Shown in pieces: positions 2,431 through 58,426 of a DNA stretch of 64,000 nucleotides. The translations under genes were made by a program, and so were the position numbers. The notes under the pieces are model-generated. The model was not told the origin of the DNA. It searched no databases and worked only from the letters and a program-made list of their open reading frames with translations. Origin of the DNA: Eledone cirrhosa (lineage: Eukaryota); contig OZ024746.1 in assembly GCA_964016885.1 (NCBI GenBank), positions 100,068,001 to 100,132,000 on the forward strand. The letters are read 5' to 3'. Position 1 is the stretch's first letter. Every line of letters begins with the position of its first letter.

Positions 2431-2804
2431 ATACATGCATGCATACATACATACATACATACATACATACATACATACATACATACATACATACATACAT
2501 ACATACATACATACATACATACATGCAACCTTTTTTGAGAAGTGGGCCGCATGAGATATGGCTCATCAGGCGGGCCGCAAGCACTAATTTACATTCGTGC
2601 CCACATTAAAAAAAAGATGATAACTCAGGTTGTTTTGATTTATTTCTTCAGAATTCGTACACGTTGTTTTCCTCGATCGTAAAAATGATAGAAAGATAAA
2701 TTACGACTGAAAAGTTGGGGTAAAAAAATCAGAAAGATCTCACTTAGGTGGCTTAGGCGAGCCTTTCAGAAAGCTTCGCTTTGACTGCTTCAGACGTTTT
2801 ATAG

Positions 2805-2975
2805 AATATCAAGTACAGCAATGCCAGGCCAACCCGTGGTGAAGGCAGAGTAGTTAAGGAACTGTTCGCCTAGCTCTACAAATCACTTCAATATCGATGA
2901 CCCCATATACGGACCATATCAGATATCAAGCTGATAAGATCAGATACTACACTTTGATCTTAGCCAAAAGGCTCA
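2805..2975 (-). pseudogene. U2: U2 snRNA-derived copy (probable pseudogene)
   Basis: Minus strand GCCTTTTGGCTAAGATCAAAGTGTAGTATCTGATCTTATCAG...ATATCTGATA...CCTGGCATTGCTGTAC matches U2, including the branch-point recognition sequence GTAGTA. The first ~10 nt (ATCGCTTCTC) are missing and the Sm site is degenerate (GATTTGTAG). Confidence 0.85.
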
Positions 2976-3373
2976 GGAATAAGTGGGCAAAGAAGAAGAC
3001 TAATATCATCAAGTTTATCTGTTTTCCTGTTAACTCGTTTGTAGTAGAGACATGGGATGGTAGATGGTGTTTGAATTTTATTTAAAAGCCAGTATCTCGT
3101 CTCAGGAATTGTTATTTAGAAATCGTTAAAGATGATCTCCGATGTACAAACCGCCAACATCACCTGACACGGATGTCAACATGCTACTGCCCACCTACAG
3201 CGTTGGAGGCAATTGGTTGACTTATGTTCCCGACGGAACAAGCCGGACTTAAATCTAAAAGCTAAATGATTATCTCATTAAACACATGTCCGAATATTCT
3301 AATTAGAATTATGATTGATTAGATTAATTTAAAAAATTAACCAACAACAATATTTTTTGCAAAAGTCATCTGT

Positions 3374-7232: not shown

Positions 7233-8037
7233 ATGTTGTGTGTGGGGGTGACCAAAATAATCCTATGTTGTGTGTGGGGGTGACGAAAGTAATCCTATGT
7301 TGTGTGTGGAGGTGACCAAAATAATCCTATGTTGTGTGTGGGGGTGACGAAAGTAATCCTATGTTGTGTGTGGGGGTGACCAAAATAATCCTATGTTGCG
7401 TGTGGGGGGTGACCAAAATAATCCTATGTTGTGTGTGGGGGTGCCCAAAATAATCCTATGTTGTGTGTGGGGGGTGACCAAAATAATCCTATGTTGTGTG
7501 TGGGGGTGCCCAAAGTAATCCTATGTTGTGTGTGGGGGGTGACCAAAATAATCCTATGTTGTGTGTGTGGGTGCCCAAAGTAATCCTATGTTGTGTGTGG
7601 GGGGTGACCAAAATAATCCTATGTTGTGTGTGTGGGTACCCAAAGTAATCCGATGTTGTGTGTGGGGGGTGACCAAAATAATCCTATGTTGTGTGTGTGG
7701 GTACCCAAAGTAATCCTATGTTGTGTGTGGGGGGTGACCAAAATAATCCTATGTTGTGTGTGTGGGTACCCAAAGTAATCCGATGTTGTGTGTGGGGGGT
7801 GACCAAAATAATCCTATGTTGTGTGTGTGGGTACCCAAAGTAATCCTATGTTGTGTGTGGGGGGTGACCAAAATAATCCTATGTTGTGTGTGGGGGGTAC
7901 CCAAAGTAATCCTATGTTGTGTGTGGGGGTGCCCAAAATAATCCTATGTTGTGTGTGGGGGTGCCCAAAATAATCCTATGTTGTGTGTGGGGGTACCCAA
8001 AGTAATCCGATGTTGCGTGTGGGGTGCCCAAAATAAC
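7233..8037. repeat. 31-32-bp G-rich minisatellite (~25 copies)
   Basis: Unit ATCCTATGTTGTGTGTGGGGG(G)TGACCAAA(A/G)TA with alternating variants. Confidence 0.95.
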
Positions 8038-13975: not shown

Positions 13976-13976
13976 A

Positions 13977-14093
13977 AAATGGAATAGAATGAAATGAAAT
14001 TTCATTTCTCACTCTTAGTGCGGCACTTACTTAAAGCGAGCATTATAATAAATGTTCGCTAAACTGATACGTACATATATATATGTGTGCCTG

Positions 14094-14160
<67 letters not shown>

Positions 14161-14598
14161 ATATACATGCTACTGTACGTCTGTATGCATATATGTATGT
14201 ACGTATACATACATACTTACATTTAAGTAAGTGCCATACTAAGAGTGAGAAATGAAATTTCATTTCATTCTATTCCATTTTATCGTTTTCGGTGCGCCTG
14301 GCCGACTGAACTCACTCGATATGCAAATTAGGCTGCTCAGCCGTTAATTTTCATAAGGAAAGTATATACTTTCGAACGTTCAACCATCTGGCAGAAGGGT
14401 ATACGGTGCTGACGATAGCTAACAAGCTTGAAACTAGTACATCGTTCCTGTGTCAGTGTTGAACAAAAAGGTGACGTGGTTGCCTTAACACCGTACGGTA
14501 TAAATCAGGCTGTCCATTTGTTTACAAACGGACAAAGCAAGCATTATAATAAATGTTCGCTAAACTGATACGTACATATATATATGTGTGCCTGTATG

Positions 14599-14612
<14 letters not shown>
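13977..14612 (+). mobile_element. Small non-coding hammerhead-bearing repeat (retrozyme-like / non-autonomous PLE)
   Basis: Direct repeat GCATTATAATAAATGTTCG at 14040 and 14541; inverted segment 13977-14035 vs 14222-14279; central hammerhead. Relatives at 23600-24112, 32285-32800 and 57617-58220. Confidence 0.7.
14403..14445 (+). ncRNA. Type I hammerhead ribozyme (minimal)
   Basis: ACGGTG-CTGACGA-T AGCT AACA AGCT T-GAAA-CTAG-TA-CATCGT: stem I, CUGANGA, stem II, GAAA, palindromic stem III, GUA cleavage triplet. Confidence 0.8.
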
Positions 14613-14638
<26 letters not shown>

Positions 14639-15132
14639 AAATTGAGGTTGGTAATGGCACATGGAATATATAAGAGACAGAATACTTTTTTGTGAAAAAA
14701 CATAATTTTATAAGGTAAGGAAATAATAAAGGGTATAAAAAATGACCGGTTTCGATGGGTCTGCAAAAGCCATCTTTTCAAATGTTGATTAATATTAAGA
14801 AAAATTAATAATACGAAGAGTTAAAATTTGAGATTTGAAAATTCGAGTATAAAATTCATTGTGGGATTTCATAGCAGTTTTCATCTAGGTAGCAACAACA
14901 GGTTGACTGCTGTGTCCCTTTCTGGTAGTGAATGAGAAGTTATTTGGGGTGTGGATTATTTTATAAAGGTCAGATTTAGCAATCGCCAACTGGCCAGCTG
15001 CTGGTCAATGAGGGGGTGGAAGCAATATACATACACATATCTTCCTGTGGTGGGTAGGAGAGTGGAGCGTGATAGAAAGGGATTTAGTGCACTTACACCT
15101 ATATATACACACATACCTTCATCCACACATAC

Positions 15133-15197
<65 letters not shown>

Positions 15198-15272
15198 CAC
15201 ACATACATACACACACACATATACATATACATACACACATACACACACACACATATATACACATACACCCAC

Positions 15273-15303
<31 letters not shown>

Positions 15304-15344
15304 TATATATATACATACACATACATCCAGATACACACATACAT

Positions 15345-15442
<98 letters not shown>

Positions 15443-15452
15443 CCCCACACAT

Positions 15453-15484
<32 letters not shown>

Positions 15485-16052
15485 GAAGAAGACTTTAGAA
15501 GGACGCACCAAACAGGTAACCCCTTTATAAAGCATTTGAACATAACAAGAACTACAACAGACACATTTACACCACCAAACCCAACACACACTAACCACAG
15601 GCACATCCCCCACCAACACAAACCAAATACGGCCAACTACACCAAAAGAAACACACCCAACCACCACAACACAGGTTTCCGTAGAAATGCCCCCTACATA
15701 AACCAACGACGAAATAACATAGATCCAACTCACAACACACACACCACATTCCTCAGAAGAAATCCACCCAGACCACTTGAAATCACAACAGAACTTACCC
15801 ACAACCACACCAGACATCACCCTCAATCCAACAAAAGACAACCCCCCAACCTCAACACTCTGTACCACAGAAATAACGCACCCAGACCACATGAACCAAC
15901 AACAGAACCCTTGCTCATCAACAACCACAACACATACCACCCCCACCATCACATTCACCCTCATGAAACAACAAGCTACAGACCCACACGCAACAGACCA
16001 ACAAAATATAATCACGCACAAAACTACATTCCTTTTTTAGGGAAAAGCCTGA

Positions 16053-18353
16053 AATACCAGGATACTCGATGACCCCCCCCCCCCCCCTCAGGAGAAACCA
16101 AAAATAATCAACCTCTCAAAGACACCTCTAACCAACACACAAATCAACATTTTAAGTAAGGGCCTGAAATTTACACCTACACCACGTAAACCAAACTTCC
16201 CCGAAATGAAGGATGACATCATGGAATACTGCCGAAAGCTGCGACTAACGGAATTCTTCCACAACGACACCAACACTGAAGACGAATCACTGGTTAGAAA
16301 TAAAAGCAATTTCTGCCCACAAAAGGGAAGAAATAAAGAACTGGACACGTACTGCGAACACATCACCAACTTTCCCTATGAAAAAATTACAAATAAACAC
16401 ACGAAATCAAACCTATCTACACACGAATGGGAAGAATTATTCACACTTAGAAACAACCCTGAGATAACTATCAAAGAAGCCGATAAATGCAGTACTGTTG
16501 TCATTATGAATACGGACTACTATAGGACCCTCGCACTTAACATTTTAGAAAACAACACATACTATGAAAAAACAGAAAACTACAAACACACCAAAACAAT
16601 GGGGAACCTTTTGACCTTACTGAATAAATACCGCAACAGCTTAACCACAAAAGAGTTTAACTATATAAGCCACTTCAAATGCAATACAAGCTCTTTTTAC
16701 GGCTTACCGAAACTCCACAAATGTAAACCCATAAACGATGCATGTGACACCTCAACCAACAATTACATTGAACTAACACCACCAGAAGACCTAAAACTCA
16801 GGCCAATTATAGCAGGCCCTACATGTGAAACCCACAGACTTAGCAACTTTCTGGACATCCTACTGAAACCCTTTCTACAACATATACAGAGCTACATACG
16901 AGATGACCTTGACATGCTGAAACACCTCCCTAAAACAGTAAGTGCAAATACAATTCTTGTCTCCTTTGACGTAATAAACCTCTACACAAACATACCTCAC
17001 AACTATGGAATAACAGCAGTCCAATACTGGCTTAACACACACCCATCAGAAATACCGACACGCATCAACACAGATTTTATCACTGACGGACTCCGCTTTA
17101 TCCTACAAAATAACTACTTCACATTCAATGGTTCAACATACAGACAAGTATCAGGTACGGCAATGGGTACGAAAGTAGCACCCACATATGCCAACCTAGT
17201 CATGGGATTCCATGAACAACAAATATACAGTCAGTCCCTTCTCTTATTTGGAGACTCTTTCCACACACACCTCAAAGCCAATTGGAAAAGATATGTAGAC
17301 GACTGCTTTATCCTATGGCAAGAAGACATGAACTCACTTACTACGTTTAAAAACATGATAAACAACATAGATAATAACATACAATTCACAATGGAATCCA
17401 ATCCTAAGGAATTAGCCTTCTTGGATATTCTCATCTCTGTAATAGACGGGAAATTAGATACAGATATATTCTATAAACCCACAGATTCCAAGCAATACCT
17501 CTTTTTCACATCAAGTCACCCAAAACATACAAAACTTAACATTCCTTACAATTTGGCCAAACGTATATGTACCATAGTATCAGATCCACCTAAACGGGAG
17601 CAAAGACTAAAGGAACTAAAAGACACCCTTATCTTAAGAGCCTTTCCACTTGAAATAATCAACAATGGAATAGACAGGGCAAAACACCTAAATCCCCATC
17701 AACTTAACAATCCAAAACAGAAAACCACACTCAACACCCTGCCATATGTATCCACTTTCAACCCCAGAAATACCGAAATGTTTGATCACCTACACAAAAA
17801 CCTCCCCATCCTACTTAAAGATGTAAAAATGAAGTCTATTCTTGAAACACACAAGATCCTTAAAAGTAAAAGACAACCCAAATCACTTAAACGCATTCTC
17901 ACTGGACCAAATATACCCAAACCAATCCTCAACCCTACAGTTACCAAATGTGGTAGAACAAACTGTGGAACGTGCCTCTACCTCACTGAAGGACAAACAT
18001 TTACATTCAAAGATGGCCAAACATTTACAGTAAAAAACAATTTCACCTGCAACTCGGAGAACTTGATTTACGCAATAACTTGCGGTGGGTGCAAACACAA
18101 CTACATAGGACAGACGGGCACCTCATTACGCAAAAGAATGACCATCCACCGCCAACAAATCCGGGACGCTAACACAAGAAAAATCCCCTTGAGCAGCCAT
18201 ATTGCGAACTGCGCAGGAATGACACTACCCAACTTTAAAATCTTCCCCTTCTACAAGTGCTCAGATTCGTTCACACAGCAACAAAGAATAAACAAAGAAA
18301 ATCTATTCCTTAACAAATTTAAACCAAAACTAAACGGGTTATCACCCCAATAG
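16053..18353 (+). CDS. PLE reverse transcriptase + GIY-YIG endonuclease (open frame from 16053, first ATG 16206)
   Basis: N-terminal IINLS...[12 protein letters not shown]; RT motifs [38 protein letters not shown] and RYVDD; Cys linker CGRTNCGTC; [18 protein letters not shown]...RMTIHR. No internal stops; the usual DKG motif reads DKC. Confidence 0.93.
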
Positions 18354-18933
18354 AATTGTCATAAAATATAAACACACATACGCACGGAATCACTACTATT
18401 AAAGACCAGAGACCAATTCTGTAGAATCAGGTTTATTCGTTGACAGACCATGCCTTTGTGTGACCAACACATCCATGTTAAACCCTGCACGTGCACACAC
18501 ATATATCTATATATGCGCACACAGAATTCACCACTGTCGGTTGCGGGGCCCAATCTACATGAAGAACTCAATGTGATCAGAATGACTTGTATTTTAATTT
18601 CACTGTCCCAACTTCTTATATTATGGAAAAAATATGTGTCTGTATGTATATATATATATTTGGAGGCCATTTCTCTGTGTGTGGGTGTATGTATGTGTAT
18701 ATGTGTGTGTGTGTGTATGTGTGTGCATGTGGATGTATGTATTGTGTGTGCGCGTGTGTGTGTGTGTGTGTGTATGTATGTGTGTATCTGGATGTATGCG
18801 TATGTGTATATATATATATATATGCGTGTGTGTGTGTGTATATATATGTGTGTGTATGTGTATATATATGTGTGTGTGTATGTTTGTATGTGTGTATGTA
18901 TATATATGTGTGTGTGTGTGTATGTATGTGTGG

Positions 18934-18989
<56 letters not shown>

Positions 18990-19066
18990 ATATATATATG
19001 TGTGTGTGTGTGTGTATGTATGTGTGTATGTATGTGTGTATCTGGATGTATGTGTATGTATATATA

Positions 19067-19118
<52 letters not shown>

Positions 19119-19524
19119 GGTGTATGTGTATATATGTGTGTGTGTGTATGTGTGTATGTATATGTATATGTATATGTATGTATGTGTGGATGAAGGTATG
19201 TGTGTATATATAGGTGTAAGTGCACTAAATCCCTTTCTATCACGCTCCACTCTCCTACCCACCACAGGAAGATATGTGTATGTATATTGCTTCCACCCCT
19301 CACTGACCAGCAGCTGGCCAGTTGGCGATTGCTAAATCTGACCTTTATAAAATAACCCACACCCCAAATAACTTCTCATTCACTACCAGAAAGGGACACA
19401 GCAGTCAACCTGTTGTTGCTACCTAGATGAAAACTGCTATGAAATCCCACAATGAATTTTATACTCGAATTTTCAAATCTCAAATTTTAACTCTTCGTAT
19501 TATTAATTTTTCTTAATATTAATC

Positions 19525-19572
19525 AACATTTGAAAAGATGGCTTTTGCAGACCCATCGAAACCGGTCATTTT
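19525..19572 (+). ncRNA. Variant hammerhead-like motif in the PLE pseudo-LTR (mirror copy at 14739-14786, minus)
   Basis: AACAT-TTGAAAA-GATGG...CCATC-GAAA-CCGG-TC-ATTTT. Stems II/III and GUC are canonical, but the CUGANGA box reads UUGAAAA and stem I is weak. Confidence 0.5.
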
Positions 19573-19708
19573 TTATACCCTTTATTATTTCCTTACCTTA
19601 TAAAATTATGTTTTTTCACAAAAAAGTATTCTGTCTCTTATATATTCCATGTGCCATTACCAACCTCAATTTTCTCTATAACCTTCGTTTTGTGTAGAAA
19701 ATTACACT

Positions 19709-19804
<96 letters not shown>

Positions 19805-19901
19805 GCTACTGTATGTCTGTATGCATATATGTATGTACGTATACATACATACTTACATATATATATATATATGTTTATGTATGTATATATATAATTAGAA
19901 A

Positions 19902-22169: not shown

Positions 22170-23150
22170 CTGATCTCGCTGGCTTTGCCGGCGTATCTTT
22201 CGTCGGTAACCTCGTGCCGCGTCCTCGTCAGCAGGGTTCTTCAAAACACAATAGAACCCTCTGTGTTCAGAGAACGTGAAGCCGCCTGTGAGACGTGGGA
22301 CCGGCTGGGACTTAGCTCAGTAGACGTCCCTCCTCCTTCTCCTCCTGTTGACGTCAAATCCCCCCAAAGCACTTGGGATGCCATCCAGTGCAGCCTGGCC
22401 TCAGACAGGCTCACGCGCCAGCCTGACCAGCACCGTACTGCCTGCTTTCGTGCAGCCTCCAAACCCCACAGTGGTTCCTGGCTCCATGCCCTGCCCTCCT
22501 TCTTCACTGGCACGCATCTAAACAACAATAGCCTGCGCATTGGCGTTTCCTTGAGGCTCGGCTTCCGGATCTGCGAGCTACACCAATGTCGCTGCGGATC
22601 CACCGTGGACTCTTTCGGCCTCCACCCTCTTTCCTGTCGCCACAGTGCCGGCCGCCTTCCACGCCATGCTGCCCTCAACGAGGTCATAAAGCATGGCTTG
22701 GACGCTGCGGGCTTCCCTTCCCAGCTCGAGCCGGTGGGGCTGCACCGAGGGAACGGCAAAAGGCCAGATGGCATGACCATCTTCCCGTTCCGCTGTGGCA
22801 AACCCCTCGTCTGATATGCTACTTGCACCGACACTTTCTGCAGCTGCAGCCTGGTGCAGTCTGCGACTAACCCAGGTTCTGCTGCACGTCGGGCTGAGGA
22901 GGCCAAACTCCTCAAATACCGGTCACTCTTCGACACGTTTGCGGTTGTACCCCTGGCAGTGGAGACTTCTGGTGTCCTCGACCCTAGGGCTACCTCTCTA
23001 CTCACCACCATAGGCGCAGAGCTGGCCAGCCGCAGGTGTGAACCCCGCGATTTGGGGTGGCTTTTCCAGCGCGTCCCCCTTGCCGTCCCCCGGGGGAACG
23101 CCTTGTACATCCTGTCCGCCGGGGCCTGTGGGGGGGGGGGGGGGGGGGGC
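22170..23150 (+). mobile_element. CRE-clade non-LTR retrotransposon 3' fragment (copy 1, pseudogenised)
   Basis: SGSWLHALP...LRLG...CRCG...GLHPLSC...RH...EPVGL...KRPDG (CCHC + PD-D restriction-like endonuclease). An in-frame TGA at 22812-22814 replaces the Trp of VWD; the frame continues in ORF 22854-23159. Confidence 0.8.
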
Positions 23151-23462
23151 ATCGCGTAACATTCCATATTTAAGTATGTGCACTATCATCGACACAGGTT
23201 GTGGTGTTGAAATAATCGACAGGTTGAAACAGCCAATGAATATTCTCTGAACATATATCTTTGTATATTAAATTTAGGACATATCCTGTTGAATATGACA
23301 GCTCTCTATAGCATGTATGTAAAGAAAGAAAAGTAAGTTTCATTTGCCGAAATACACTTGAATATCATAGCTTTTCATTTGATGTCTGACTCAGTAATGT
23401 TACTAGTACAATATATATATATATATATATATAGTTATGTAATAAACAACATAAGGCAATTA

Positions 23463-23522
23463 TTTCATTTACCAGTGGTTTCTTGAAAGCAAACAAATTT
23501 GCTTTCAATCATCAGAATGAAA
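23463..23522 (-). ncRNA. Type I hammerhead ribozyme
   Basis: Minus strand TTTCATT-CTGATGA-TTGAAAGCAAA TTTG TTTGCTTTCAA-GAAA-CCACTGG-TA-AATGAAA: 7-bp stem I, 11-bp stem II. Confidence 0.85.
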
Positions 23523-24132
23523 AAATCGACGGCTATTTCTGGACTAAATTAGAATTTTTTTTCTAAAGTTTTAATTTAGTCCAGAAAAAATAGCCGTCGA
23601 AACGGCTTGAGCTCTGCCGTGATTCGGGCTGTTTGTTTGTTTACAAACAAACCGAGCATTATAATAAATGTTCGGTAAACCGATACGTGTATATATATAT
23701 GTGTGCATGTATGTATATACATACTACTGTACGTCTGTATACATATATGTATGTACGTATACATACATGCATACTTACATTTAAGTAACTGCCGTACTAA
23801 GAGTGAGAAATGAAATTTCGTTTCGTTCTATTCCATTTGTCGTTTTCGGTGCGCCCGGCCGACTAAACTCACTCGATATGCAAATTAGGCTGCTCAGCCG
23901 TTAATATACATAAGGAAAGTATATACTTTCAGACGTTCAACCATCTGGCAGGATTCGGGCTGTTTGTTTGTTTACAAACAAACCGAGCATTATAATAAAT
24001 GTTCGGTAAACCGATACGTGCATATATATATATGTGTGCATGTATGTATATATATACATACTACTGTACGTCTGTATACATATATGTATGTACGTATACA
24101 TACATACTTACATTTATATATATATATATATA

Positions 24133-24184
<52 letters not shown>

Positions 24185-24847
24185 TATATATATATATTCA
24201 TATATATATATATTCCTACGTCATTATATGTATATGTCTGTGTGTGTTTTTGTGTATGTATGTACGTAATTATGTATGTATATATATATGTATGTATTTA
24301 ATAACTTTAAGAGGTTTCGGTGAATAAATCATGCTTCCGACACGATGGCCCACCCCACTAAAAGGTTATTATTTGTAGAGATATCCAGGTATAAAGTCTT
24401 AAAAGAAATTCTTAAAGGAATTTATTCAGGGTTCTTCTTATTTTTATAGATTCTTTTTATATTTTGATGAGCTTTTGCATGATATAAAACAGAGCAAGGT
24501 TGAGGTTAAATAGTTGGGCGGGGGGGGGGGGTAATTTATTATGTAATGCGTGTAAGTACTTGCAATTATTAGATGCAGAATTTTTGGAATGTTTTACATA
24601 TTTTTGCTGTTCCATTAATAGATTATACAAGTAATTTCCTAAATTGTTGTGTTCTTTCTGTTCCTGTGAAGCCTAGCTTCTCGAGATTTGTACTGAGGCA
24701 GTTACTAACATATCTCAGTGTCCCAATAATGTTTGTATGTATTCCGTTTATTACGGGAATAAACTATCGCTGCACTGTATGTAAACGAAGAAATGTAGGT
24801 GTGGTGTGTGTTTGTGAGTGTATATATATACATATATACACTCACAA

Positions 24848-24887
<40 letters not shown>

Positions 24888-24980
24888 GTGTGTGTATATA
24901 TATATATATATATATGTTATATGTGTGTATATACGTATATATATATATATGTGTGTGTATATATATAGATATAGATATAC

Positions 24981-25082
<102 letters not shown>

Positions 25083-30789: not shown

Positions 30790-31838
30790 AAATCTGTGAA
30801 AGTCATTTGGCAACAGGCCACTTTACCTGTCAGGTATGGCGGCTTTGGTCTCCGGTCTCTGATCTCGCTGGCTTTGCCGGCGTATCTTTCGTCGGTAACC
30901 TCGTGCCGCGTCCTCGTCAGCAGGGTTCTTCAAAACACAATAGAACCCTCTGTGTTCAGAGAACGTGAAGCCGCCTGTGAGACGTGGGACCGGCTGGGAC
31001 TTAGCTCAGTAGACGTCCCTCCTCCTTCTCCTCCTGTTGACGTCAAATCCCCCCAAAGCACTTGGGATGCCATCCAGTGCAGCCTGGCCTCAGACAGGCT
31101 CACGCGCCAGCCTGACCAGCACCGTACTGCCTGCTTTCGTGCAGCCTCCAAACCCCACAGTGGTTCCTGGCTCCATGCCCTGCCCTCCTTCTTCACTGGC
31201 ACGCATCTAAACAACAATAGCCTGCGCATTGGCGTTTCCTTGAGGCTCGGCTTCCGGATCTGCGAGCTACACCAATGTCGCTGCGGATCCACCGTGGACT
31301 CTTTCGGCCTCCACCCTCTTTCCTGTCGCCACAGTGCCGGCCGCCTTCCACGCCATGCTGCCCTCAACGAGGTCATAAAGCATGGCTTGGACGCTGCGGG
31401 CTTCCCTTCCCAGCTCGAGCCGGTGGGGCTGCACCGAGGGAACGGCAAAAGGCCAGATGGCATGACCATCTTCCCGTTCCGCTGTGGCAAACCCCTCGTC
31501 TGATATGCTACTTGCACCGACACTTTCTGCAGCTGCAGCCTGGTGCAGTCTGCGACTAACCCAGGTTCTGCTGCACGTCGGGCTGAGGAGGCCAAACTCC
31601 TCAAATACCGGTCACTCTTCGACACGTTTGCGGTTGTACCCCTGGCAGTGGAGACTTCTGGTGTCCTCGACCCTAGGGCTACCTCTCTACTCACCACCAT
31701 AGGCGCAGAGCTGGCCAGCCGCAGGTGTGAACCCCGCGATTTGGGGTGGCTTTTCCAGCGCGTCCCCCTTGCCGTCCCCCGGGGGAACGCCTTGTACATC
31801 CTGTCCGCCGGGGCCTGTGGGGGGGGGGGGGGGGGGCA
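30790..31838 (+). mobile_element. CRE-clade non-LTR retrotransposon 3' fragment (copy 2)
   Basis: WQQATLPVRYGGFGLRS...KRPDG; same premature TGA (31501-31503) as copy 1 but extends further 5'. Confidence 0.8.
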
Positions 31839-32796
31839 TCGCGTAACATTCCATATTTAAGTATGTGCACTATCATCGACACAGGTTGTGGTGTTGAAAT
31901 AATCGACAGGTTGAAACAGCCAATGAATATTCTCTGAACATATATCTTTGTATATTAAATTTAGGACATATCCTGTTGAATATGACAGCTCTCTATAGCA
32001 TGTATGTAAAGAAAGAAAAGTAAGTTTCATTTGCCGAAATACACTTGAATATCATAGCTTTTCATTTGATGTCTGACTCAGTAATGTTACTAGTACAATA
32101 TATATATATATATATATAGTTATGTAATAAACAACATAAGGCAATTATTTCATTTACCAGTGGTTTCTTGAAAGCAAACAAATTTGCTTTCAATCATCAG
32201 AATGAAAAAATCGACGGCTATTTCTGGACTAAATTAGAATTTTTTTTCTAAAGTTTTAATTTAGTCCAGAAAAAATAGCCGTCGAAACGGCTTGAGCTCT
32301 GCCGTGATTCGGGCTGTTTGTTTGTTTACAAACAAACCGAGCATTATAATAAATGTTCGGTAAACCGATACGTGTATATATATATGTGTGCATGTATGTA
32401 TATACATACTACTGTACGTCTGTATACATATATGTATGTACGTATACATACATGCATACTTACATTTAAGTAACTGCCGTACTAAGAGTGAGAAATGAAA
32501 TTTCGTTTCGTTCTATTCCATTTGTCGTTTTCGGTGCGCCCGGCCGACTAAACTCACTCGATATGCAAATTAGGCTGCTCAGCCGTTAATATACATAAGG
32601 AAAGTATATACTTTCAGACGTTCAACCATCTGGCAGGATTCGGGCTGTTTGTTTGTTTACAAACAAACCGAGCATTATAATAAATGTTCGGTAAACCGAT
32701 ACGTGCATATATATATATGTGTGCATGTATGTATATATATACATACTACTGTACGTCTGTATACATATATGTATGTACGTATACATACATACTTAC

Positions 32797-32861
<65 letters not shown>

Positions 32862-33503
32862 TATATATATATATTCCTACGTCATTATATGTATATGTCT
32901 GTGTGTGTTTTTGTGTATGTATGTACGTAATTATGTATGTATATATGTATGTATGTATTTAATAACTTTAAGAGGTTTCGGTGAATAAATCATGCTTCCG
33001 ACACGATGGCCCACCCCACTAAAAGGTTATTATTTGTAGAGATATCCAGGTATAAAGTCTTAAAAGAAATTCTTAAAGGAATTTATTCAGGGTTCTTCTT
33101 ATTTTTATAGATTCTTTTTATATTTTGATGAGCTTTTGCATGATATAAAACAGAGCAAGGTTGAGGTTAAATAGTTGGGGGGGGGGGTAATTTATTATGT
33201 AATGCGTGTAAGTACTTGCAATTATTAGATGCAGAATTTTTGGAATGTTTTACATATTTTTGCTGTTCCATTAATAGATTATACAAGTAATTTCCTAATT
33301 TGTTGTGTTCTTTCTGTTCCTGTGAAGCCTAGCTTCTCGAGATTTGTACTGAGGCAGTTACTAACATATCTCAGTGTCCCAATAATGTTTGTATGTATTC
33401 CGTTTATTACGGGAATAAACTATCGCTGCACTGTATGTAAACGAAGAAATGTAGGTGTGGTGTGTGTTTGTGAGTGTATATATATACATATATACACTCA
33501 CAA

Positions 33504-33547
<44 letters not shown>

Positions 33548-33643
33548 GTGTGTGTATATATATATATATATATGTTATATGTGTGTATATACGTATATAT
33601 ATATATATGTGTGTGTATATATATAGATATAGATATACATGTG

Positions 33644-33720
<77 letters not shown>
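30859..33720 (+). repeat. ~2.9-kb direct segmental duplication, copy 2
   Basis: Matches 22170-25075 at an offset of ~8.69 kb. Confidence 0.92.
32148..32207 (-). ncRNA. Type I hammerhead ribozyme (duplicate of 23463-23522)
   Basis: Identical sequence within the duplicated segment. Confidence 0.85.
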
Positions 33721-33729
<9 letters not shown>

Positions 33730-47115: not shown

Positions 47116-47325
47116 ATATACACATTTATATACATATACATATGTACACATTTATATACATATACATATGTGCGTATGGGTTATATCGAACACTAATAAT
47201 AATATTCGATCCGTCTGTAAACAAACAGCCCGATGAAAGCCATACCGATGACCAATCGTCATCTGTTTGTTCAACACTGGCACGTACATATGTCTATGTA
47301 TATATGTGTGTATATATATATATAT

Positions 47326-50094: not shown

Positions 50095-53036
50095 ATTCTT
50101 CTGGTTTCATAATTTCACAAATTCTTTCCCAATAGAGAGAGAGTCGGTTTCTAACATAGACACAAGCCTCTCTCATTGGAATTTACCCAACATCAATTAG
50201 GTAGATATGTATGAATGCATGCATGCGTGTGTTTGTGTGTGTGTGAAGGTATGGATGTGTATGTTTCGTTGTGTGTGTGCAGGTATGGATGTGTATGTTT
50301 CGTTGAGTGTGTGCAGGTATGGATGTGTATGTTTCGTTGTGTGTGTGCAGGTATGGATGTGTATGTTTCGTTGTATGTGTGCAGGTATGGATGTGTATGT
50401 TTCGTTGTGTGTGTGCAGGTATGGATGTGTATGTTTCGTTGTATGTGTGCAGGTATGGATGTGTATGTTTCGTTGTATGTGTGCAGGTATGGATGTGTAT
50501 GTTTCGTTGTATGTGTGCAGGTATGGATGTGTATGTTTCGTTGTATGTGTGCAGGTATGGGTGTGTATGTTTCGTTGTATGTGTGCAGGTATGGATGTGT
50601 ATGTTTCGTTGAGTGTGTGCAGGTATGGATGTGTATGTTTCGTTGTGTGTGTGCAGGTATGGATGTGTATGTTTCGTTGAGTGTGTGCAGGTATGGATGT
50701 GTATGTTTCGTTGTATGTGTGCAGGTATGGATGTGTATGTTTCGTTGTATGTGTGCAGGTATGGGTGTGTATGTTTCGTTGTATGTGTGAAGGTATGGAT
50801 GTGTATGTTTCGTTGAGTGTGTGCAGGTATGGATGTGTATGTTTCGTTGAGTGTGTGCAGGTATGGATGTGTATGTTTCGTTGTATGTGTGCAGGTATGG
50901 ATGTGTATGTTTCGTTGTATGTGTGCAGGTATGGGTGTGTATGTTTCGTTGTATGTGTGAAGGTATGGATGTGTATGTTTCGTTGAGTGTGTGCAGGTAT
51001 GGATGTGTATGTTTCGTTGTATGTGTGCAGGTATGGATGTGTATGTTTCGTTGTATGTGTGCAGGTATGGGTGTGTATGTTTCGTTGTATGTGTGAAGGT
51101 ATGGATGTGTATGTTTCGTTGAGTGTGTGCAGGTATGGATGTGTATGTTTCGTTGAGTGTGTGCAGGTATGGATGTGTATGTTTCGTTGAGTGTGTGCAG
51201 GTATGGATGTGTATGTTTCGTTGAGTGTGTGCAGGCATGGATGTGTATGTTTCGTTGAGTGTGTGCAGGTATGGATGTGTATGTTTCGTTGTATGTGTGC
51301 AGGTATGGGTGTGTATGTTTCGTTGTATGTGTGCAGGTATGGATGTGTATGTTTCGTTGTATGTGTGCAGGTATGGATGTGTATGTTTCGTTGTGTGTGT
51401 GAAGGTATGGATGTGTATGTTTCGTTGTGTGTGTGAAGGTATGGATGTGTATGTTTCGTTGAGTGTGTGCAGGTATGGATGTGTATGTTTCGTTGTATGT
51501 GTGCAGGTATGGATGTGTATGTTTCGTTGTATGTGTGCAGGTATGGATGTGTATGTTTCGTTGAGTGTGTGCAGGTATGGATGTGTATGTTTCGTTGTAT
51601 GTGTGCAGGTATGGATGTGTATGTTTCGTTGTATGTGTGCAGGTATGGATGTGTATGTTTCGTTGAGTGTGTGCAGGTATGGATGTGTATGTTTCGTTGT
51701 ATGTGTGCAGGTATGGATGTGTATGTTTCGTTGTATGTGTGCAGGTATGGATGTGTATGTTTCGTTGAGTGTGTGCAGGTATGGATGTGTATGTTTCGTT
51801 GAGTATGTGCAGGTATGGATGTGTATGTTTCGTTGAGTGTGTGCAGGTATGGATGTGTATGTTTCGTTGAGTGTGTGCAGGTATGGATGTGTATGTTTCG
51901 TTGTGTGTGTGAAGGTATGGATGTGTATGTTTCGTTGTATGTGTGCAGGTATGGATGTGTATGTTTCGTTGTGTGTGTGCAGGTATGGATGTGTATGTTT
52001 CGTTGTGTGTGTGCAGGTATGGATGTGTATGTTTCGTTGTATGTGTGCAGGTATGGATGTGTATGTTTCGTTGTATGTGTGCAGGTATGGATGTGTATGT
52101 TTCGTTGTATGTGTGCAGGTATGGATGTGTATGTTTCGTTGTATGTGTGCAGGTATGGATGTGTATGTTTCGTTGAGTGTGTGCAGGTATGGATGTGTAT
52201 GTTTCGTTGTATGTGTGCAGGTATGGATGTGTATGTTTCGTTGTATGTGTGCAGGTATGGATGTGTATGTTTCGTTGAGTGTGTGCAGGTATGGATGTGT
52301 ATGTTTCGTTGTATGTGTGCAGGTATGGATGTGTATGTTTCGTTGTATGTGTGCAGGTATGGATGTGTATGTTTCGTTGAGTGTGTGCAGGTATGGATGT
52401 GTATGTTTCGTTGAGTGTGTGCAGGTATGGATGTGTATGTTTCGTTGTGTGTGTGCAGGTATGGATATGTATGTTTCGTTGTATGTGTGCAGGTATGGAT
52501 GTGTATGTTTCGTTGAGTGTGTGCAGGTATGGATGTGTATGTTTCGTTGAGTGTGTGCAGGTATGGATGTGTATGTTTCGTTGTGTGTGTGAAGGTATGG
52601 ATGTGTATGTTTCGTTGTATGTGTGAAGGTATGGATGTGTATGTTTCGTTGTATGTGTGCAGGTATGGGTGTGTATGTTTCGTTGTATGTGTGAAGGTAT
52701 GGATGTGTATGTTTCGTTGTATGTGTGCAGGTATGGATGTGTATGTTTCGTTGAGTGTGTGCAGGTATGGATGTGTATGTTTCGTTGTGTGTGTGAAGGT
52801 ATGGATGTGTATGTTTCGTTGTGTGTGTGCAGGTATGGATGTGTATGTTTCGTTGTATGTGTGCAGGTATGGGTGTGTATGTTTCGTTGTATGTGTGAAG
52901 GTATGGATGTGTATGTTTCGTTGTATGCGTGCATCTTCATATGTTTTGTATCTGTACATATATACATGCAGTTATTACTTATAGAGATTTGGGAATGTTT
53001 TACAAATTTTTACCGTTCCATTAATGGATTGTACTT
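50095..53036 (-). mobile_element. R4 family B 3' end, expanded by an internal satellite
   Basis: 50095-50225 matches 39455-39580 and 52927-53036 matches 39630-39742. Confidence 0.75.
50240..52926. repeat. 34-bp minisatellite (~79 copies, 2.7 kb)
   Basis: Unit GTGTGCAGGTATGGATGTGTATGTTTCGTTGTAT with a few recurrent variants. Confidence 0.97.
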
Positions 53037-57610: not shown

Positions 57611-57616
57611 TATAAA

Positions 57617-58220
57617 CGGAAAAAATGAAACGAAATTTCCTTTCCCACTCTTAGTACGGCTGTTACTTAAATATAAGTATGTACACGTACATACATATAT
57701 GTATACAGACGTACAGTAGTATGTATATATATATATATACATACATGCACACATATATATATGTACGTATGGATTTACCGAACATTTATTATAATGCTCG
57801 GTGTGTTTGTAAACAAACATCCCGTAATTTCGTTTCATTTTTTCCGTTTATCGTTTTCGGTGCACCCAGCCGATTAACCCACTCGATATGCAAATTGGGC
57901 TGCTCAGCCGTCAATATGCATAAGGAAAGTATATACTTTCAGACGTTCAACAATCTGGCAGGAAGGTATACGTTGCTGACGATAGCTAATAAGCTTGAAA
58001 CTAGTACAGCGTTCCTTTGTCAGTGTTGAACAAACGAGCAACGATGGTTGCTAGACACTACGGCTTAATACGGGATGTTTGTTTACAAACACACCGAGCA
58101 TTATAATAAATGTTCGGTGAATCCATACGTACATATATATATGTGTGCATGTATGTATATATATATATACATACTACTGTACGTCTGTATACATATATGT
58201 ATGTACGTGTACATACTTAT
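57617..58220 (+). mobile_element. Retrozyme-like hammerhead repeat with ~150-bp inverted arms
   Basis: 57675-57826 is the reverse complement of 58068-58220; the core is homologous to 14260-14530. Confidence 0.7.
57970..58012 (+). ncRNA. Type I hammerhead ribozyme (family of 14403-14445)
   Basis: ACGTTG-CTGACGA-TAGCTAATAAGCTT-GAAA-CTAG-TA-CAGCGT. Confidence 0.8.
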
Positions 58221-58299
58221 ATATATATATACATATGTCCCAAGGCTCTGATACCATCAACACCATAAACACAGAGCTGGCACATCTAAGAACTGACTA

Positions 58300-58355
58300 A
58301 CTGCCTGATGAGGTCATAGCCATTCAATGGCTATCATCGAAATATATATAGCAGT
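58300..58355 (+). ncRNA. Type I hammerhead ribozyme
   Basis: ACTGC-CTGATGA-G..ATAGCCATT C AATGGCTAT..C-GAAA-TATATA-TA-GCAGT. Confidence 0.75.
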
Positions 58356-58426
58356 AAATAAAGGATTATGAGTTTATGCAATTGACTTATGTTTCGTCAC
58401 TATATATATATATATATATAATAAGT

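What the first reader, a model, noticed from the sequence alone, without database searches (positions are those of the whole stretch)
13977..14612. Small non-coding retrozyme-like repeat whose hammerhead stem I covaries between copies
Seen: a 330-500-bp ORF-less unit recurs as partial tandem or inverted repeats at 13977-14612, 23600-24112, 32285-32800 and 57617-58220. Two copies carry a hammerhead with a double substitution in stem I (ACGGTG/CATCGT vs ACGTTG/CAGCGT) that swaps G.U for U.G and keeps pairing, with an unchanged core. The other two copies lack the ribozyme-containing segment. Inference: a non-autonomous ribozyme retroelement family, probably mobilised by a PLE RT and possibly replicating through a circular RNA.
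Basis: partly seen in the sequence, partly recalled or inferred. Interest (0 to 1): 0.75.

Follow-up and report, generated by a model that had tools for sequence, protein, structure and literature searches.

The report
Promoter-carrying hammerhead retrozyme, Penelope footprint
These are copies of a non-coding 420-520-base repeat, present over 25,000 times in this animal genome, that carries a predicted self-cutting hammerhead RNA just behind a likely promoter resembling those of the host's small nuclear RNA genes, and whose insertions have the end pattern of Penelope-type jumping genes, which likely copy it; cutting, transcription and RNA circles are untested.

Summary
The two ribozyme-less copies are one event inside a 2.9-kb duplication. 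Copy 1 is split by a Neptune-type PLE and ends at 19858. The unit has over 25,000 genomic matches in at least five subfamilies. The stem I swap is one subfamily-level pair (U.G, G.U, A-U) and weak alone, but four other pairs also change on both sides. 3' ends fall at two sites about 59 nt apart, mostly beside (AT)n; 30 of 59 loci have two outward arms; no end lies at the cleavage site. This is the PLE 'tail' footprint. Ahead of the ribozyme lie a box matching the host U6/MRP/U6atac box, a U1-like TCAG and a TATA, spaced alike in sister families. No RNA data were available, Rfam gives no hammerhead hit, and no driver PLE was identified. Verdict: a non-LTR retrozyme, likely self-promoted and PLE-mobilised. 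The scan has noted the same picture on other DNA of this genome.

The parts
13976..14035 (-). Copy 1, inverted left arm: exactly the segment between 3' end sites A and B, outer end at site B next to (AT)n
   Evidence: unit positions 307 to 248, 98%
14033..14614 (+). Copy 1, sense arm, about 1.2 units of the G.U subfamily, interrupted in its internal (AT)n module
14320..14332 (+). Octamer-containing box matching the upstream box of host U6, RNase MRP and U6atac genes (-73 to the predicted start; host -77 to -79)
   Evidence: score 20.3 with a matrix from 5 host genes, about 2.5e-5 per monomer under a simple background
14337..14341 (+). TCAGC at -56; host U1/U2/U5 genes have TCAGT at -55 to -58
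   Evidence: 13 of 15 host upstream regions shown
14363..14369 (+). TATA-like box; placing it at -30 predicts a start at 14393 (C|A), 47 nt before the cleavage site
   Evidence: the start is inferred
14403..14445 (+). Type I hammerhead motif: 6-bp stem I with G.U, U.U at base of 4-bp stem II, 2-bp palindromic stem III; predicted cut after 14439; stem I extends over 14378-14464
14634..19712 (+). Neptune-type PLE (ORF 16053-18353: RT, CxxC linker, GIY-YIG; inverted 3' copy 14634-15484; 36-nt tail) inserted into copy 1. Not part of the element, not shown to be its driver
   Evidence: clade assigned from the motif order described in PMC8557442
19747..19858 (+). Copy 1, remainder of the sense arm, ending at site A in (AT)n
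23622..24116 (+). Ribozyme-less insertion (A-U subfamily): unit 64-398 then 64-228; the jump leaves just after the predicted start site; joined 5'-to-5' to pieces of other repeat families
32307..32801 (+). Identical duplicate of 23622-24116 within a 2.9-kb segmental duplication
57612..57826 (-). Copy 4, inverted left arm, outer end at site B in (AT)n
57826..58222 (+). Copy 4, sense arm (U.G subfamily), 0.93 unit, ending at site A; box 57887-57899, TATA 57930, predicted start 57960
57970..58012 (+). Type I hammerhead motif with U.G in stem I; predicted cut after 58006

Best explanation
This is a non-coding, very high-copy hammerhead repeat (a non-LTR retrozyme) that is likely transcribed from an snRNA-type promoter inside each unit, is predicted to cut itself into unit-length RNA that probably circularises, and is likely reverse-transcribed into (AT)n sites by a Penelope-like element enzyme starting at two fixed internal sites. 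Shown by sequence: copy number, subfamilies, no ORF, hammerhead core and geometry, compensatory pairs, two 3' end sites about 59 nt apart, two-armed insertions with one end of each kind, copying straight across the cleavage site, one template lineage per insertion, and the promoter-like cassette with conserved spacing. Inferred: transcription from the cassette, more likely by Pol II as for U1 because TCAG and the C|A start are placed as in U1 and T-runs lie inside the unit (about 0.65 that the cassette is the promoter); cleavage, probably slow or dimeric (about 0.75); a circular template (about 0.6); a PLE enzyme extending both strands of a break (about 0.85). A promoter upstream of the start survives retrotransposition because multimers or circles contain the whole unit.
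For: Copy number. Structure: circular fold z -5.0 to -10.3 for 5 of 5 monomers against 30 shuffles each. On 37 copies a named structure has 85 pairs, 96.8% of cells paired, and 11 pairs with both-side changes, 7 of them in 7 or more sequences. Among five subfamily majorities 6 of 64 pairs vary and 5 are kept by both-side change. Ends: in 59 position-ordered loci, 63 of 95 3' ends fall at site A (26) or B (37), 0 at the cleavage site; 0 of 96 5' ends at the cleavage site; 30 of 59 loci are two-armed. Read from that table, 9 two-armed loci have both ends strictly at A or B and 5 more if ends 10 nt short of A on a reference with a local insertion are counted; all 14 are A+B, none A+A or B+B. A 25-mer spanning the cut has 25,380 matches against 26,677 for the 25-mer starting at it. 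Shared non-majority alleles per 100 nt: 1.17 same arm, 0.78 opposite arms, 0.12 different insertions. Promoter; box+TATA pattern 22,567 matches against 691 control; four sister families with hammerhead-like cores keep box, YCAS (mostly at +17) and TATA (mostly at +44, range 40-44) with different spacers, and one has the exact U6 spacing of 48 and a G start. PLE tail biology: PMC11167929, PMC8557442.
Against: No cleavage, transcript or circle was observed. No Rfam hammerhead hit, and the usual G10.1-C11.1 pair is U.U. Box-to-TATA spacing is 43, not the host U6-type 47-49; host U1/U2/U5 genes lack the box near -72; the TCAG match is 4 nt, was noticed post hoc, and the cassette also folds into small hairpins. 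32 of 95 3' ends are elsewhere. The only PLE examined has a 36-nt tail, so the driver is unknown. The named structure was derived from these sequences, copies are related, one subfamily majority breaks a pair, and the AT module inflates folding z-scores. 31 private alleles are shared by only some units of an insertion, which a single monomer circle does not predict.
Confidence: 0.7

Rival explanations
1. Same element and PLE mobilisation, but the template is a linear, uncut multimer read through from tandem source loci; the hammerhead is weak or a passenger and circles play no part.
For: Insertions cross the cleavage site, which fits uncut linear RNA as well as circles. The U.U base of stem II and 2-bp stem III predict slow cleavage; a similar axolotl motif cut 22% in 1 h as a monomer. 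In vitro the PAc PLE uses unprocessed RNA. Only 1 of 9 Xenopus dimers cut.
Against: The core is invariant across five subfamily majorities except the variable N7. Arrays of 3-9 near-identical units with both arms sharing alleles and one A-B-A-B-A array are easier to explain by rolling round a circle.
Confidence: 0.2
2. The unit is the pseudo-LTR or 3' end of an autonomous PLE, and the copies are 5'-truncated insertions of that element.
For: PLE-type ends; 24 of 57 Xenopus retrozyme families match known TEs, nearly all PLE termini.
Against: The unit closes head to tail on itself in tandem arrays. tblastn with one Neptune protein hit 3 of 160 loci, at no fixed position. A pattern for other families with the same hammerhead geometry returned mainly mutated copies of this family among the 100 of 203 matches listed. 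A distant PLE ORF could have been missed.
Confidence: 0.06
3. No internal promoter: transcription is by read-through from flanks, and the boxes are conserved as RNA structure or protein-binding sites.
For: The spacing matches neither host class exactly; the review PMC7761336 states that retrozymes seem to lack promoters; the region folds into hairpins.
Against: Box, YCAS, TATA and a purine start recur at near-fixed spacing in families with different spacers, and one family has exact U6 geometry. The box stays fixed while its predicted pairing partner changes between subfamilies.
Confidence: 0.2
4. DNA MITE or minisatellite spread by DNA-level mechanisms.
For: Inverted repeats flank many copies; tandem arrays exist.
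Against: The inversions are variable-length 5'-truncated arms with two alternative 3' ends, not fixed TIRs; the 5' ends are scattered; compensatory pairs point to RNA structure.
Confidence: 0.03

Closest known systems
Metazoan non-LTR retrozymes (Cervera and de la Pena 2020, PMC7229834; parts 2-4 of 6 read)
   Same: Non-coding unit of a few hundred nt, GC below 50% (36-38%), one canonical-geometry type I hammerhead per unit, tandem copies, self-paired predicted circle, PLEs in the same genome. The axolotl HHR_Amex2 also has a U.U at the base of helix II.
   Different: Mostly dispersed 1-2-unit insertions with two-armed PLE-type ends, an internal (AT)n module and a promoter-like cassette. Cleavage and circles were shown there, not here. 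The review PMC7761336 (passages) says such elements seem to lack promoters and motifs pointing to a driver.
Newt satellite 2 (Coats, Zhang and Epstein 1994; paper not held; known here from its title and one sentence in PMC2220036)
   Same: Hammerhead repeat with an internal snRNA-type promoter used by Pol II.
   Different: Different phylum and sequence. The cassette here mixes the host U6-type box with a U1-type TCAG. That newt ovary transcripts start about 47 nt before the cut, as predicted here, is recalled and could not be checked.
EN+ Penelope-like elements (Craig et al. 2021, PMC8557442, passages; Frangieh et al. 2024, PMC11167929, parts 1-2 of 4)
   Same: Partial tandems, inverted 5'-truncated arm, a tail at one end only, two internal RT start sites, AT-rich or (TA)n targets.
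   Different: No ORF; the tail is 58-60 nt rather than 30-40 nt; the hammerhead has canonical rather than minimal geometry.
Vertebrate retrozymes derived from PLE pLTRs (Li, Clavereau and Pollet 2026, bioRxiv 10.64898/2026.07.22.740005; parts 1-3 of 5 read, supplements not seen)
   Same: Non-autonomous PLE partners; monomers, dimers and multimers.
   Different: No homologous PLE terminus was found here; the link rests on the insertion footprint, which the parts read do not analyse.

Membership tests
Non-LTR retrozyme | Type I hammerhead motif in each unit | tested here: met
   Core and geometry (6/4/2-bp helices, palindromic loop 3) as described in PMC4209133; no Rfam hit; U.U at 10.1-11.1.
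Non-LTR retrozyme | Short non-coding unit in tandem copies, GC below 50% | tested here: met
   420-520 nt, GC 0.36-0.38, longest ATG ORF 53-71 codons, arrays up to 9 units.
Non-LTR retrozyme | Self-paired structure of the unit | tested here: met
   partly circular because the structure came from these sequences.
Non-LTR retrozyme | Self-cleavage of the RNA | not testable with these tools
   Needs an in vitro assay.
Non-LTR retrozyme | Expression as linear and circular unit-length RNA | not testable with these tools
   No raw RNA reads could be laid.
Non-LTR retrozyme | Target-site duplication longer than 4 bp when present | not tested
   Microsatellite targets obscure duplications.
PLE-mobilised insertion | Two internal 3' end sites, tail at one end only | tested here: met
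   63 of 95 3' ends at A or B; 14 of 14 scorable two-armed loci are A+B.
PLE-mobilised insertion | Inverted 5'-truncated arm and AT-rich target | tested here: met
   30 of 59 loci two-armed; ends abut (AT)n.
PLE-mobilised insertion | Identified autonomous partner sharing the tail or terminus | tested here: inconclusive
   The neighbouring Neptune has a 36-nt tail; other PLE families were not surveyed.
Autonomous PLE or its pLTR | RT and GIY-YIG ORF attached | tested here: not met
   (one query protein only).
Host U6-type (Pol III type 3) promoter | Upstream box TATG(C/G)(A/T)AAT(T/G)AG | tested here: met
Host U6-type (Pol III type 3) promoter | Box-to-TATA spacing 47-49 and G start | tested here: not met
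   43 and an A start; met only in one sister family.
Host U1-type (Pol II snRNA) promoter | TCAGT at -55 to -58, TATA-like at about -30 | tested here: inconclusive
   TCAGC at -56: 4 of 5 letters, right place; YCAS kept in sister families.
DNA MITE | Fixed terminal inverted repeats at both ends | tested here: not met
   Arms vary in length and 5' ends are scattered.

The most novel reading that the evidence does not exclude
A radiation of self-promoting circular-RNA retroposons: several families captured host snRNA promoter parts (a hybrid Pol II-type cassette in most, an exact U6 cassette in one), start transcription just ahead of the hammerhead, regenerate the external promoter by circularising or multimerising the whole unit, and are written into (AT)n by a dimeric PLE enzyme that copies one RNA circle, sometimes a heterodimeric circle, from two start sites into both strands of a break.
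Probability: 0.35. Interest if true: 0.75.

Novelty: new variant of a known kind. Interest (0 to 1): 0.52.

Why it matters
How animal retrozymes are transcribed and which enzyme copies them are stated as open in PMC7761336 and PMC7229834. This family gives exact, testable predictions for both: a start site 47 nt before the cut, three promoter boxes to mutate, and two RT start sites about 59 nt apart to assay with host PLE proteins. With over 25,000 young copies it is also a visible part of the genome. My searches found no paper on cephalopod retrozymes or on a retrozyme with such a promoter; the O. vulgaris repeat annotation PMC13282606 has no occurrence of 'ribozyme' in its main text. Repbase, Dfam and supplements were not seen and may hold the family as an unclassified repeat.

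Tried and rejected
Expression: no RNA holder listed. Contigs of four runs under three organism labels cover parts of the unit but cannot show ends, strand or circles; no weight given. Rfam: no hammerhead family among the 150 of 225 window matches shown or at the two sites. The ribozyme-less form as its own subfamily: rejected. The adjacent Neptune as driver: not supported. The hammerhead repeat at 23433-23527 as a route to the driver: no PLE ORF hit within 8 kb upstream in 10 of 10 loci. A de novo census of tail lengths in other repeats was swamped by the AT module. RNA editing: rare A>G 72 vs T>C 46, 11 vs 4 among shared private alleles; units are not independent, so inconclusive. 5' ends near the predicted start: 5 of 96 in a 13-nt window, about 3 expected; the window was centred 5 nt off. 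Dimer periodicity: seen in L159, not in the seven other arrays examined. Coats 1994 and Ferbeyre 1998 are not held; a search for newt start-site data found nothing. RNAalifold on the linearised unit missed two long-range helices that single circular folds and pair counts support.

Full report
Observation. The four stretches are homologous and the two hammerheads are as described. They are three insertions. 23622-24116 and 32307-32801 are identical and sit in a 2.9-kb duplication; among the 40 best matches only these two cover the ribozyme-less junction. Copy 1 is 13976-14614 plus 19747-19858. A 5-kb Neptune-type PLE (RT, CxxC linker, GIY-YIG) sits in its internal (AT)n. The host is a 3.0-Gb animal genome; that it is cephalopod-like is my inference from repeat content, not a tool result.

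Family. The 31-nt core has 12,834 exact matches (control 0), the 25-mer after the cut 26,677. The best 40 matches to copies 1 and 4 are 97-100% identical. Cut-to-cut monomers are mostly 420-520 nt, GC 0.36-0.38, with no ATG ORF above 71 codons in the three tested. Of 143 distinct units, 127 fall in five clusters; three majorities are 85-94% identical. An older variant ends its core in GUU.

Ribozyme and fold. Helix I has 6 bp, helix II 4 bp and helix III 2 bp with a palindromic loop, the canonical metazoan type I geometry, which often needs dimers (PMC4209133). The base of helix II is U.U, as in axolotl HHR_Amex2, which cut 22% in an hour as a monomer. Rfam gives no hammerhead hit. Broader evidence is better. 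Five of five circular monomers fold at z -5 to -10 (the AT module contributes). A named 85-pair structure on 37 chosen copies has 96.8% paired cells and 11 pairs with both-side changes (one hairpin with a register shift was left out, and one 2-pair helix is only 61% paired). Among five subfamily majorities 6 of 64 pairs vary, 5 are kept by both-side change and 1 breaks; paired columns vary in 11 of 128 cases, others in 63 of 219. These counts are not tree-corrected.

Insertion footprint. I used 59 of 70 position-ordered loci, dropping 11 that overlapped or duplicated others. 37 of 95 3' ends lie at site B and 26 at site A, 58-60 nt apart; 9 lie in the AT module and 23 elsewhere; none is at the cleavage site. 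None of 96 5' ends is at the cleavage site. 30 loci have two arms with 3' ends outward. Where both outer ends are scorable (9 strictly, 14 with five ends 10 nt short of A on a reference with a local insertion), every case is A+B. Window copies 1 and 4 are also B+A. This matches the tail at one end only and the inverted truncated copy of PLEs, and the two RT start sites and both-strand extension shown in vitro for PAc. The sample was chosen by the core, so I checked without that bias: a 25-mer spanning the cut has 25,380 matches against 26,677 for one starting at it. Of 10 listed hits lacking the exact core, at most one begins at the cut. The template is therefore uncut or circular, not the linear cleaved monomer. 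Units of one insertion share non-majority alleles at 1.17 (same arm) and 0.78 (opposite arms) per 100 nt against 0.12 between insertions (50 loci, two insertions counted twice). One array alternates two haplotypes, A-B-A-B-A; seven others examined do not.

Driver. The Neptune inside copy 1 is young: 59 scored copies at 98-100%, most without stops. It shows two 3' ends of its own, 36 nt apart. It is a positive control for the footprint but not evidently the driver. No PLE ORF is attached at a fixed place (3 of 160 loci hit, one query).

Promoter. Three distinct host U6 loci, RNase MRP and one U6atac locus share a box at -77 to -79 and a TATA at -30. The other 7 U6atac hits lack it, and U6 copies with a repeat inserted upstream were left out. 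The element has the same box (score 20.3 and 16.2; about 2.5e-5 and 7e-4 per monomer), but 43 nt before its TATA, not 47-49. Host U1, U2 and U5 genes instead have TCAGT at -55 to -58 in 13 of 15 upstream regions; the element has TCAGC at -56, and +1 falls on C|A as in U1, 47 nt before the cut. A box+TATA pattern has 22,567 matches against 691 control. Among the non-family hits I fetched and the copies of a sister fragment at 47127-47283, four families keep box, YCAS (mostly at +17) and TATA (mostly at +44) ahead of an intact or degenerate hammerhead core, with different spacers. One family has the exact U6 spacing and a G start. Conserved spacing across different spacers is what a promoter predicts. 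Pol II is my best guess because T4-T6 runs lie inside the unit. Transcription was not observed.

Comparison. It works like, and meets every sequence-testable feature of, the non-LTR retrozymes. Cleavage and circles are untested. It differs in having a promoter-like cassette, which the review says such elements seem to lack although newt satellite 2 has an snRNA promoter, and a clear PLE footprint where the papers read only propose the link. Earlier unreviewed notes of this scan report the same picture for this and sister families elsewhere in the genome. I had the U6 comparison before reading them; they prompted the U2/U5, sister-family and editing checks.

Verdict. Real; a new variant of a known kind; interest 0.52. 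The covariation highlighted is the least of the evidence. The testable parts are the promoter cassette and the two RT start sites.

Noticed in passing
window 14634-19712: Young Neptune-type PLE family with many open ORFs. All 30 copies read carry a hammerhead-like motif whose C3 and G8 appear replaced by U and A, a possibly compensatory core variant; a sister retrozyme family shows the same (L412-L414).
   Followed up: partly
window 23433-23622 (and 32118-32307): The ribozyme-less insertion is joined 5'-to-5', without (AT)n, to a fold-back piece of another repeat and to an inverted arm of a second hammerhead family (about 1.1-kb repeat, own two 3' ends about 65 nt apart, no PLE ORF hit in 10 loci). 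Possible template switching between families in one event.
   Followed up: partly
window 47127-47283 (-): Fragment of a diverged sister retrozyme family (about 70-76% identity) whose copies carry the same promoter-like cassette.
   Followed up: partly
L415, L416 (G000:C1:21716275, 22607353): Hammerhead repeat family with exact host U6 promoter geometry (spacing 48, G start).
   Followed up: partly
L159:784-2720: Array alternating two haplotypes about 4% apart (A-B-A-B-A): heterodimeric circle or DNA-level duplication of a dimer.
   Followed up: partly
window 58294-58360 (+), 34020 (+), 49894 (-), 49609 (+), 22231 and 30920 (-): Further hammerhead-like motifs of other repeat families; the one at 58305 has a long helix II and a palindromic AT-rich helix III, PLE-like.
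   Followed up: no
L121-L146, L187, L188, L216-L243: Host snRNA promoter grammar: Pol III genes have an octamer-containing box at about -78 plus TATA; Pol II genes have TCAGT at about -56 plus a TATA-like box; U1 and two U6 loci share a further motif near -260.
   Followed up: partly
window 2796-2983 (-): Degenerate U2 snRNA copy (82.9 bits against about 180 for array genes), probably a pseudogene.
   Followed up: no
window 22170-25067 / 30859-33725: 2.9-kb duplication, 98.3%; its GC-rich part holds 250-310-codon frames with no Pfam hit.
   Followed up: no
window 50236-52933 and 7233-8036: 34-bp minisatellite (79 copies) and 65-bp minisatellite.
   Followed up: no
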